Assembly: GCF_009914755.1 (NCBI RefSeq)
Contig: NC_060935.1
Strand: one strand, 5' to 3'
DNA length: 64,000 bases
Origin: the human T2T-CHM13v2.0 reference genome, Homo sapiens
Numbering within the stretch: the stretch's first letter is position 1; every line of letters starts with the position of its first letter. The notes under the pieces are model-generated. The model was not told the origin of the DNA. It saw only the letters and a program-made list of their open reading frames with translations, and did not search any database. The position numbers and the translations under genes were made by a program. Of this stretch, positions 2,805-3,660 are shown one piece after another.

Positions 2805-3660
2805 CCTATAAATCAATCCTGACTGGGTGGGGCCACCTTTGTGGAGAGTTACTGAATTAGGAATTTAATCATTTTGATTGTTCTTGTAATTACTTAGCAG
2901 TCCACTATCATAATCTAATCAATCTAAAAGTGACATGATTATCTTATTTTTTGAAACCCCATTCATAATTTTAAAATCTCCTTTATCTTGATAAATTATA
3001 CAACTATGAAAAAAATTCTAAACATTGCATTTAAGTATAGAAAAGCACAAACACAGCTGTACTTGGAGGCAGAGGATTGCATCAATCCCTGCATTCCCTG
3101 AAGAATCATTATGATTTCAGTAATATCAAATGCAGAAAATGTTGTGTTGAATAACTCTTAAGATACCATAAGCAGATATGTTGTTGAGAATGGGATTTTT
3201 TTTGTATTGGTGAAAAATTTTGTGAATTTCTGGACAAAACTATATACAATGGTCCTGTGATTTATGCAATTGCATTTCTCGAACATTATGAAAATTAAAA
3301 CAAGCAACAACACTTGTAATTTATAATTAAATATGGTGCAGCCTTGCACATCGTGAACATGTTTATCATCCAATTTCATGTCTGGAGGTCACTGGAGAGT
3401 CCTGTGACATGCTTGCAGGTAGCTTAATTGTCTTGGCCATTGTCCATAGCAGCCCCCATTCACTAGGAGAACCACCAGAGCAAACTCCAGATTTTAAATG
3501 AATCCAGACTGAGTGGTACCACCTTTGCTGAGAGTTACTGCTTTAGGTAATTTAATCATCTGGATTGTTCTTGTGATGAGTTAGGAGACGATTATCACAA
3601 CCTAATCAATCCAGAAGTCATGAAGTCTCCACCCACTCATTAAGGTGACTCAATATAAAC
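2805..3660 (+). promoter_or_regulatory. Putative promoter/enhancer of copy 1 with DUX4-type double-homeodomain sites, CACCC box, AP-1 site and TATA box
   Basis: TAATCTAATCA 2911-2921, TAATTTAATCA 3548-3558, near matches GAATTTAATCA 2861-2871 and CAACCTAATCA 3598-3608; CCACCC 3629-3634; TGACTCA 3646-3652; TATAAA 3654-3659, about 130 bp upstream of the ATG. Confidence 0.65.

What the first reader, a model, noticed from the sequence alone, without database searches (positions are those of the whole stretch)
2805..3660. DUX4-consensus sites plus TATA upstream of every complete copy: candidate embryonic-genome-activation/FSHD-induced phosphatases
Seen: two exact TAAYYTAATCA matches (2911-2921, 3548-3558) and two one-mismatch sites within 900 bp of the ATG, followed by CCACCC, TGACTCA and TATAAA. 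The two exact sites and the TATA recur at copies 2 and 3. The distal TAATCTAATCA is unchanged at 54041-54051 although its flanks there are heavily diverged. Known: this is the DUX4 motif, and DUX4 targets (PRAMEF, TRIM43/49, ZSCAN4, MBD3L, RFPL) are often clustered multi-copy genes with cleavage-stage expression. Inference: the cluster may supply a burst of variant CTD phosphatase when the zygotic genome switches on.
Basis: partly seen in the sequence, partly recalled or inferred. Interest (0 to 1): 0.9.

Follow-up and report, generated by a model that had tools for sequence, protein, structure and literature searches.

The report
DUX4-switched promoter of SSU72-like phosphatase retrogenes
The flagged stretch is the promoter of a family of duplicated SSU72-like RNA polymerase II phosphatase retrogenes, and published RNA-seq shows the whole family goes from silent to very highly expressed when the embryonic factor DUX4 is switched on.

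Summary
All 6 exact DUX4-consensus 11-mers in the 64-kb window lie in the three SSU72-like promoters it contains. Only two sites are independent. They sit in two diverged copies of a ~130-nt module, 687 bp apart, upstream of a conserved TATAAA. RefSeq starts SSU72L4 and SSU72L1 29 nt after that TATAAA.

The main prediction holds in published data that no searchable main text discusses. In Supplemental Table S2 of Hamm et al. 2026 (PMC13224869), SSU72L1-6 and SSU72P6 rise by log2FC 9.75-12.87 after DUX4 induction in myoblasts. Counts go from about 0-10 to about 600-22,000, and parental SSU72 is unchanged. This is close to H3Y1 and TRIM43 and below LEUTX, PRAMEF2 and MBD3L2.

Not shown: DUX4 occupancy, dependence on the motifs, expression in embryos, or protein.

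Caveats:
- SSU72L5 has lost both exact sites yet shows similar counts, while chr7 SSU72L6 keeps both and reaches about 25-fold fewer counts.
- The motifs are not measurably more conserved than their flanks.

The genes are an old, selectively maintained, intronless retrocopy of SSU72 with intact catalytic motifs. Verdict: a real, new member of the DUX4-target class.

The parts
2809..2938 (+). Distal copy of the ~130-nt promoter module (copy 1, SSU72P6)
   Evidence: Direct repeat of 3495-3623, 81% identical
2861..2871 (+). Distal site A, GAATTTAATCA, one mismatch to the DUX4 consensus
   Evidence: Same sequence in 5 of 7 genomic copies
2911..2921 (+). Distal site B, TAATCTAATCA, exact DUX4 site of the optimal 'CT flavour'
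   Evidence: Exact in 6 of 7 copies. Flavour ranking from Zhang 2016
3495..3623 (+). Proximal copy of the promoter module
   Evidence: Its downstream flank resembles copies of a 6,374-match LTR family beyond the motif itself
3548..3558 (+). Proximal site A, TAATTTAATCA, exact DUX4 site of the 'TT flavour', 96 nt before the TATAAA
   Evidence: Exact in 6 of 7 copies; SSU72L5 has TAGTTTAATCA
3598..3608 (+). Proximal site B, CAACCTAATCA, one mismatch
   Evidence: Invariant in 7 of 7 copies
3629..3634 (+). CCACCC box (KLF/SP-type; this assignment is recalled, not tested)
   Evidence: Present in 6 of 7 copies
3646..3652 (+). TGACTCA (AP-1-type consensus; this assignment is recalled, not tested)
   Evidence: Present in 7 of 7 copies
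3654..3659 (+). TATAAA box
   Evidence: The enclosing ATATAAA is invariant in 7 of 7 copies
3683..3683 (+). Predicted transcription start of SSU72P6, 29 nt after the first T of TATAAA
   Evidence: Placed by position homology to the RefSeq 5' ends of SSU72L4 (13259) and SSU72L1 (64432), from the gene table. SSU72L3's annotated start (54877) is 56 nt after its TATAAA
3785..4369 (+). SSU72P6 open reading frame, intact 194 codons, intronless
   Evidence: The parent gene on chr1 matches it in 5 separate exons
13283..14081 (-). Copy 2 promoter (SSU72L4): TATAAA 13283-13288; sites at 13334-13344, 13384-13394, 14021-14031 and 14071-14081
54041..54826 (+). Copy 3 promoter (SSU72L3): exact sites 54041-54051 and 54715-54725; one-mismatch site 54765-54775; TATAAA 54821-54826. 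Distal site A is degraded here to GAATTTAATAA

Best explanation
Window 2805-3660 is the promoter of one member of the SSU72-like retrogene family. The family has six copies in three palindromic pairs on chr11 and one copy on chr7.

An old processed copy of the RNA polymerase II CTD phosphatase gene SSU72 sits behind a CpG-poor, TATA-containing promoter that shows no BLAST-level match to the parent gene's upstream region. The promoter holds two diverged copies of a ~130-nt module, each with two DUX4-type double-homeodomain sites 50 nt apart. Each module carries one exact site and one one-mismatch site.

Proposed mechanism: DUX4 binds these sites, above all the proximal pair 96 and 46 nt before the TATAAA and the optimal distal site about 740 nt before it. 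It acts synergistically and drives initiation about 29 nt after the TATA box. This turns a silent family into one of the most abundant DUX4-induced transcript groups.

- Shown: the sites, their arrangement, the annotated starts, and the DUX4-dependent induction.
- Inferred: direct binding, dependence on these sites, expression at embryonic genome activation, and protein function.
For: 1. All 6 exact sites in 64 kb fall in the 3 promoters present in the window. Two exact sites in a single promoter are improbable by chance (0 of 20,000 and 11 of 20,000 shuffles).
2. The distal site is the CT flavour, the most active DUX4 sequence. The TT flavour is also active, and multimerised sites act synergistically (Zhang 2016 passages; cooperativity also in Bosnakovski 2023 passages).
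3. RefSeq 5' ends of SSU72L4 and SSU72L1 lie 29 nt after the TATAAA (gene table).
4. Published RNA-seq: WT +Dox versus no Dox log2FC of 9.75-12.87 for all 7 genes. Replicate-1 counts sum to 88,402, against 17-23 without Dox and 1,153 for parental SSU72, a 77-fold excess.
5. In the same table the fold changes are close to H3Y1 (12.78) and TRIM43 (13.25), and 2-3.5 log2 units below PRAMEF2 (14.78), LEUTX (14.97) and MBD3L2 (15.54).
6. The TATA box, TGACTCA and proximal site B are invariant in 7 of 7 copies, including the chr7 copy. The chr7 coding sequence is about 4% diverged from the chr11 copies.
Against: 1. SSU72L5 has lost both exact sites (TAGTTTAATCA and TAAAGTAATCA) yet is listed at log2FC 12.56 with about 16,400 counts. 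A ZSCAN4 site with the A of its first TAAT changed was inactive in reporters.
2. chr7 SSU72L6 keeps both exact sites but reaches only about 630 counts.
3. Per-paralogue counts are not fully reliable. The chr11 mRNAs differ at only 1-16 of about 1,100 positions. Reads were aligned to GRCh38 with Rsubread and featureCounts.
4. The measurement is at 18 h of doxycycline, so secondary activation is not excluded.
5. Motif columns are not significantly less variable than flanks: 5 of 44 versus 197 of 1,026, Fisher p = 0.24.
6. I saw no ChIP data for this locus.
Confidence: 0.72

Rival explanations
1. Induction is indirect. A factor made in response to DUX4 (for example another paired-like homeobox protein, or an AP-1 or KLF factor acting on TGACTCA or CCACCC) activates the promoter, and the DUX4-type sites are dispensable.
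For: - SSU72L5 lacks both exact sites but shows similar counts, while SSU72L6 keeps them and is about 25-fold lower.
- The data are from a single 18-h time point.
- TGACTCA is invariant in 7 of 7 copies and CCACCC is present in 6 of 7.
Against: - The fold changes are close to H3Y1 and TRIM43 in the same table.
- The optimal CT-flavour site and a TT-flavour site lie within about 750 nt of the start.
- KLF18 knockout raises rather than lowers SSU72L expression, by +0.4 to +1.04 log2 for SSU72L1-5 and SSU72P6.
- SSU72L5 still holds proximal site B and distal site A, and lies within about 10 kb of SSU72L2's intact sites.
Confidence: 0.17
2. DUX4 acts directly, but mainly through sites or enhancers outside 2805-3660, such as neighbouring copies in the palindrome or distal bound repeats. 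The local sites would add little.
For: - The clustered chr11 copies give 12- to 35-fold more counts than the solitary chr7 copy, although both exact sites, proximal site B and the TATA box are unchanged in the chr7 copy.
- The SSU72L5 result fits sharing of sites with its palindromic partner.
Against: - There are no other exact DUX4 sites anywhere in the 64-kb window.
- Annotated transcripts are single-exon and start just after the local TATA box (gene table).
Confidence: 0.08
3. The motifs are a by-product of A+T-rich sequence copied by segmental duplication and have no regulatory role. The genes would be ordinary pseudogene-like retrocopies.
For: - The 6 matches are only 2 independent events.
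- There is no excess conservation of motif columns.
- At 11 per 20,000, a genome's worth of promoters would give some two-site promoters by chance.
Against: - Induction is several-thousand-fold and DUX4-dependent for all 7 genes.
- All 7 ORFs are intact, with dN/dS of 0.28-0.39 between chr7 and chr11 copies.
Confidence: 0.03

Closest known systems
Canonical clustered DUX4 target families (TRIM43, PRAMEF, MBD3L2, LEUTX, H3Y1, ZSCAN4)
   Same: Silent without DUX4 and then induced by log2FC of about 10-15 in the same table. Multi-copy and clustered. DUX4 consensus sites lie close to the start.
   Different: The product is a paralogue of a core Pol II CTD phosphatase. No main text in the searchable library links SSU72L or SSU72P with DUX4. 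Occupancy by DUX4 was not seen here.
TAF11L family (DUX4-induced paralogues of a general transcription factor)
   Same: A multi-copy paralogue family of basal Pol II machinery switched on downstream of DUX4 (Hamm 2026 passage).
   Different: TAF11L members are among the KLF18-dependent genes. SSU72L1-5 and SSU72P6 go up by 0.4-1.04 log2 in both KLF18 knockouts.
DUX4-bound MaLR-type LTR promoters
   Same: The proximal module shares 14 of 16 bases with the motif block of a family giving 6,374 genomic matches. That block contains the 'MALR' core printed in Zhang 2016. It also shares an adjacent 16-nt block (best copy 15 of 16), and a TATAAA follows downstream. Similarity of the downstream flank exceeds shuffles: maximum reached in 2 of 300, mean in 0 of 300.
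   Different: There is no BLAST-level membership; only the 14 SSU72L modules are found. The upstream flank and the distal module show no significant similarity. Spacings differ. The family name is recalled, not given by any tool.
Parental SSU72 (chr1)
   Same: 138 of 191 aligned residues are identical. The match to solved human SSU72 has E = 6.6e-95, with the Cys-X5-Arg signature and the downstream Asp aligned.
   Different: SSU72L is intronless where the parent has 5 exons. Its promoter is CpG-poor and TATA-containing and shows no detectable homology upstream of about -10. The parent is not DUX4-responsive (log2FC 0.03).

Membership tests
Direct DUX4 target gene | DUX4 consensus site(s) in or near the promoter | tested here: met
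   Two exact and two one-mismatch sites lie within 800 nt of the TATA box. 6 of 7 genomic copies keep both exact sites.
Direct DUX4 target gene | Strong induction when DUX4 is expressed | tested here: met
   Read in published Supplemental Table S2 of PMC13224869: log2FC 9.75-12.87 for all 7 genes. This is not my own experiment.
Direct DUX4 target gene | DUX4 occupancy by ChIP or CUT&Tag | not testable with these tools
   No peak list for this locus was seen. The Young 2013 supplements hold no SSU72 entry.
Direct DUX4 target gene | Response lost when the motif is mutated | not testable with these tools
   The natural variant SSU72L5 (both exact sites lost) still shows high counts, but paralogue assignment is uncertain.
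Cleavage-stage (embryonic genome activation) gene | Transcripts appear at the 4-8-cell stage or in 8C-like cells | tested here: inconclusive
   Supplements of 3 embryo, 8C-like-cell or DUX4-induced hESC papers hold no SSU72 entry at all, not even the parent. They are selective lists and uninformative.
Processed retrogene | Intronless copy of a multi-exon parent | tested here: met
   A continuous ORF against 5 separate exon matches on chr1.
Processed retrogene | Poly(A) remnant and target-site duplication | tested here: not met
   None is recognisable after the AATAAA and 3' end near 4785. This is expected for an old copy (dS about 1). The 5' boundary is also undefined (50 of 500 shuffles reach the observed score).
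Ssu72-type CTD phosphatase | Cys-X5-Arg active-site loop and the general-acid Asp (residue roles recalled) | tested here: met
   CVSN[V/I]NRS is present in 7 of 7 copies and aligns with the same loop of solved human SSU72. The IQD/IKD Asp is retained in 7 of 7. Enzyme activity was not tested.
MaLR-type LTR | Sequence similarity along the LTR | tested here: inconclusive
   Only the motif block and one adjacent block match. The downstream flank is significant; the upstream flank and distal module are not. No BLAST hits outside the family.
MaLR-type LTR | LTR termini and flanking target-site duplication | not tested
   No repeat library is available.

The most novel reading that the evidence does not exclude
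[quoted passage not shown] The encoded variant phosphatases would then take over Ser5P/Ser7P dephosphorylation of the Pol II CTD. That could rewire termination, 3'-end processing and promoter recycling across the genome, and so contribute both to the burst-like character of embryonic genome activation and to DUX4 toxicity. The promoter would be an ancient LTR-like module captured by a retrogene at about the time the DUX family arose.
Probability: 0.2. Interest if true: 0.8.

Novelty: new member of a known kind. Interest (0 to 1): 0.55.

Why it matters
DUX4 is the cause of facioscapulohumeral dystrophy and an early driver of human embryonic genome activation. Its known targets are mostly transcription factors, ubiquitin ligases and histone variants.

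Here a seven-gene family encodes apparently catalytically competent paralogues of the essential Pol II CTD phosphatase SSU72. In the Hamm 2026 table its fold change is close to H3Y1 and TRIM43, and its summed counts are about three-quarters of TRIM43's. Its transcripts exceed the parent's by about 77-fold. No searchable paper discusses it.

That gives a concrete, testable link between DUX4 and the Pol II phosphorylation and termination machinery. The genes were called pseudogenes until recently and are nearly identical, so they are easily lost in standard pipelines.

Tried and rejected
- **Literature, main text:** searches for SSU72L or SSU72P with DUX4 gave 0 papers. SSU72 with DUX4 gave 3 papers whose listed titles and abstracts are unrelated to this question; they were not opened. 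SSU72 with '8-cell' and 'genome activation' gave 1 mouse chromatin-modifier paper. Six Ensembl ids of the family gave 1 unrelated paper. SSU72 with retrocopy terms gave nothing listed that holds SSU72.
- **Literature, supplements:** 5 of the 6 papers searched hold no SSU72 entry at all: Young 2013, Taubenschmid-Stowers 2022, Yoshihara 2022, Jiang 2020 and Torre 2023. These are selective lists, so this is not evidence of absence. Jagannathan 2016 is not held. bioRxiv supplements are closed, and the Hamm files were cut when stored.
- **Repeat identity of the promoter:** BLAST-type searches of the genome with 206 and 336 nt found only the family itself. A two-site spacing pattern gave 48 matches, of which at least 11 of the 47 listed are the family and the rest look unrelated. 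A sequence-only profile could not be run on this genome. Pairwise comparison with 30 copies of a high-copy LTR family gave a partial, significant match for the proximal module only.
- **5' boundary of the retrocopy:** similarity to the parent's 5' UTR upstream of -12 is not significant (50 of 500 shuffles, plain scoring; 383 of 500, transition-tolerant).
- **Selection on the motifs:** no significant excess conservation.
- **Other columns of Hamm files 5 and 6**: left uninterpreted because their headers were not read.

Full report
**1. The observation**

Region 2805-3660 reads as the finder described.
- Exact matches to TAAYYTAATCA lie at 2911-2921 (TAATCTAATCA) and 3548-3558 (TAATTTAATCA). The same two recur at 14021-14031 and 13384-13394 on the minus strand, and at 54041-54051 and 54715-54725.
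- The window holds 6 matches against 0.30 expected; 0 of 100 shuffles reach 6.
- The published broader form TAAYBBAATCA finds the same 6 and no others in 64 kb (1.34 expected; 1 of 100 shuffles reaches 6).
- One-mismatch sites sit at 2861-2871 and 3598-3608, with counterparts at the other copies.
- CCACCC (3629-3634), TGACTCA (3646-3652) and TATAAA (3654-3659) follow.

The three promoters are duplicates, so only two exact sites are independent. For one promoter taken alone, 0 of 20,000 dinucleotide shuffles give two narrow-motif sites and 11 of 20,000 give two broad-motif sites. That is improbable locally. Across some 20,000 promoters, though, about ten such cases would be expected by chance, so the motif count alone is not decisive.

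**2. Anatomy**

The four sites are not four separate events. They belong to two copies of a module of about 130 nt (2809-2938 and 3495-3623), 81% identical and 687 bp apart in direct orientation. Each copy has two sites 50 nt apart.
- In the proximal copy the first site is exact and the second has one mismatch.
- In the distal copy the reverse holds.

Within the window:
- Copy 1 (SSU72P6) and copy 2 (SSU72L4) lie in the arms of an inverted repeat: 1-5153 against 16946-11793, 98.4% identical.
- The 10.1-kb stretch 2741-12826 is repeated directly at 53868-64000 at 97.9% identity.

The whole genome is searchable. The promoter occurs upstream of six chr11 genes and of one chr7 gene, and nowhere else at BLAST sensitivity. 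All seven have an intact 194-codon ORF.

**3. Origin of the genes**
- The ORF matches the chr1 SSU72 gene in five separate exon pieces, so the family descends from a processed retrocopy.
- Against the parent, 138 of 191 aligned residues are identical, dS is about 0.99 and dN/dS is 0.18. This is an old copy kept under purifying selection.
- Between chr7 and chr11 copies, dS is about 0.09 and dN/dS is 0.28-0.39.
- The protein matches solved human SSU72 at E = 6.6e-95 over 193 of 194 residues, with the Cys-X5-Arg loop and the downstream Asp aligned. The catalytic roles of these residues are recalled, not tested.
- BLAST homology to the parent starts about 10 nt before the ATG. Similarity further upstream is not significant (50 of 500 shuffles).
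- The promoter is therefore foreign to the parent gene. It has 35% G+C and a TATA box.

**4. Transcription start**

RefSeq places the 5' end of SSU72L4 at 13259 and of SSU72L1 at 64432. Each lies 29 nt after the first T of its TATAAA (gene table). SSU72L3's annotated start (54877) is 56 nt after its TATAAA. The equivalent position in copy 1 is 3683. This fits TATA-directed initiation from the local promoter.

**5. Do the genes respond to DUX4?**

No main text in the searchable library mentions SSU72L or SSU72P together with DUX4. Supplements of five of the six papers searched hold no SSU72 entry at all.

The supplements of Hamm et al. 2026 (Genes Dev, PMC13224869) do. Supplemental Table S2 compares MB135iDUX4 myoblasts with and without doxycycline. 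The header was read, the rows, and the 18-h treatment is given.

| Gene | log2FC (+Dox vs no Dox) | adjusted p |
|---|---|---|
| SSU72L1 | 11.62 | 1.6e-239 |
| SSU72L2 | 11.87 | 4.1e-293 |
| SSU72L3 | 11.82 | 7.8e-119 |
| SSU72L4 | 12.30 | 3.8e-190 |
| SSU72L5 | 12.56 | 2.9e-150 |
| SSU72L6 | 9.75 | 1.7e-22 |
| SSU72P6 | 12.87 | 3.5e-55 |
| SSU72 (parent) | 0.03 | 0.75 |

- Normalised counts go from 0-10 to about 7,600-22,000 for the chr11 genes and to about 630 for chr7 SSU72L6.
- Summed over the family, replicate 1 gives 88,402 counts, against 17-23 without doxycycline and 1,153 for the parent. That is a 77-fold excess.
- Benchmarks in the same table: H3Y1 12.78, TRIM43 13.25 (about 119,500 counts), PRAMEF2 14.78, LEUTX 14.97, MBD3L2 15.54.
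- The family is thus close to H3Y1 and TRIM43 in fold change and 2-3.5 log2 units below the other three.

**6. Quality of the sites**

Zhang et al. 2016 (passages) report the following:
- TAATCTAATCA, the distal exact site here, is the most preferred and most active DUX4 sequence.
- TAATTTAATCA, the proximal exact site, is one of the four active flavours.
- Half-sites are inactive.
- A ZSCAN4 site with the A of its first TAAT changed is inactive.
- Multimerised sites act with strong synergy.

Bosnakovski et al. 2023 (passages) add that single sites activate very weakly. They also report that DUXA, itself DUX4-induced, competes for the same sites. The same elements could therefore also mediate shut-off.

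**7. Results that do not fit neatly**

*Site table across the seven copies:*

| Element | Copies retaining it | Exceptions |
|---|---|---|
| Distal exact site | 6 of 7 | SSU72L5 has TAAAGTAATCA |
| Proximal exact site | 6 of 7 | SSU72L5 has TAGTTTAATCA |
| Proximal second site | 7 of 7 | none |
| Distal first site | 5 of 7 | changed in SSU72L1 and SSU72L3 |
| TATA box | 7 of 7 | none |
| TGACTCA | 7 of 7 | none |
| CCACCC | 6 of 7 | SSU72L3 has TCACCC |

- SSU72L5 has lost both exact sites yet shows about 16,400 counts.
- SSU72L6 keeps both exact sites yet reaches only about 630 counts.
- Part of this may be read assignment. The chr11 mRNAs differ at only 1-16 of about 1,100 positions (SSU72L1 and SSU72L4 at 1; SSU72L5 and its nearest relative at 10). 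SSU72L6 has 47 private positions. Reads were 150-bp pairs aligned to GRCh38 with Rsubread and counted with featureCounts.
- The family-level induction and the SSU72L6 result are therefore robust. The per-copy values on chr11 are not.
- Motif columns vary in 5 of 44 cases against 197 of 1,026 for flanks (Fisher p = 0.24).
- The unchanged distal site in copy 3 is unremarkable, since 56 of 444 eleven-column windows are also unchanged.

There is thus no sequence evidence for selection on the sites. The copies are too young to give such a test much power.

**8. Where the promoter came from**

The proximal module's first site and its flanks resemble a 16-nt block that occurs 6,374 times in this genome and 0 times in the reversed control. 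Matches often come in same-strand pairs about 1.9-2.2 kb apart, as expected for the two LTRs of an element. That block contains the 'MALR' core printed in Zhang 2016.

I compared 30 genomic copies pairwise with the module, leaving the motif itself out.
- The downstream flank of the proximal module scores above shuffles: the observed maximum is reached in 2 of 300 shuffles and the observed mean in 0 of 300.
- The same 16-nt block aligns in the best copies, at 15 of 16 bases in the best one.
- The upstream flank and the distal module are not significant.

This points to distant MaLR-type LTR ancestry, at perhaps 40-50% confidence. It is not membership, and no repeat library or profile search was available to settle it.

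**9. Conclusion**

The finding is real, and its central inference is correct for DUX4 responsiveness.

The most likely mechanism is direct, synergistic DUX4 binding to the paired sites, driving TATA-dependent initiation (confidence about 0.7). Indirect activation or help from neighbouring copies remains possible.

Expression in human cleavage-stage embryos is likely for a gene set of this class, but I could not check it. Whether the proteins are made and what they do to the Pol II CTD is open.

HGNC has recently moved at least SSU72P2 from pseudogene to protein-coding as SSU72L2 (passage). A 2026 T2T repeat survey mentions the cluster only for nearby SVA elements (passages).

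Noticed in passing
window 3785-4369: SSU72P6 is annotated as a pseudogene, but in this assembly it has an intact 194-codon ORF with the catalytic loop. It is listed as DUX4-induced at log2FC 12.87.
   Followed up: partly
L006 (chr11 copy SSU72L5, outside the window): This is the only copy that has lost both exact DUX4 sites (TAGTTTAATCA and TAAAGTAATCA), yet it is reported at counts similar to its neighbours. 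It is a natural mutant worth a reporter test.
   Followed up: partly
L007 and L016 (chr7 copy, SSU72L6): A solitary seventh copy has an intact ORF, both exact sites and the TATA box, and 47 private mRNA positions. It is induced at log2FC 9.75 but reaches about 25-fold fewer counts than the chr11 copies.
   Followed up: partly
L017:1482-2063 (chrX): A separate SSU72 retrocopy has an intact 194-codon ORF, but the Arg of the Cys-X5-Arg loop is replaced by Gln. There is no DUX4 motif in 3.5 kb and no shared promoter. Against the parent, dS is 0.49 and dN/dS 0.22.
   Followed up: partly
window 1-5153 vs 11793-16946; 2741-12826 vs 53868-64000: The genes sit tail-to-tail in the arms of palindromes (98.4% identical arms, 6.6-kb spacer). 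The 10.1-kb stretch 2741-12826 is repeated directly at 53868-64000 (97.9%).
   Followed up: yes
window about 2700-2750 and the aligned upstream regions of all 7 copies: There are two forms of the distal promoter. SSU72P6, L1, L4 and chr7 L6 have an Alu-like element (family name recalled) with a poly(A) tail directly upstream of the distal module. L2, L3 and L5 lack it and carry other indels. Proximal parts are 96-99% alike, which suggests a patchwork of duplication and conversion.
   Followed up: partly
window 3629-3634 (CCACCC): In both KLF18 knockout lines SSU72L1-5 and SSU72P6 rise further, by 0.4-1.04 log2 over wild type plus Dox. SSU72L6 rises in one line only. Whether the CACCC-type box is involved is unknown.
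   Followed up: no
codon 139 of the ORFs (window copies SSU72L4, L3 and L1): SSU72L1, L3 and L4 read NMEIQD where SSU72P6, L2 and L5 read NMDIQD (chr7 L6: NMDIKD). This is an Asp-to-Glu change three residues before the conserved Asp.
   Followed up: no
chr11 cluster as a whole: A 2026 T2T repeat survey notes three SVA_B copies within the 116-kb SSU72L cluster and proposes deleting them as a test (passages).
   Followed up: no
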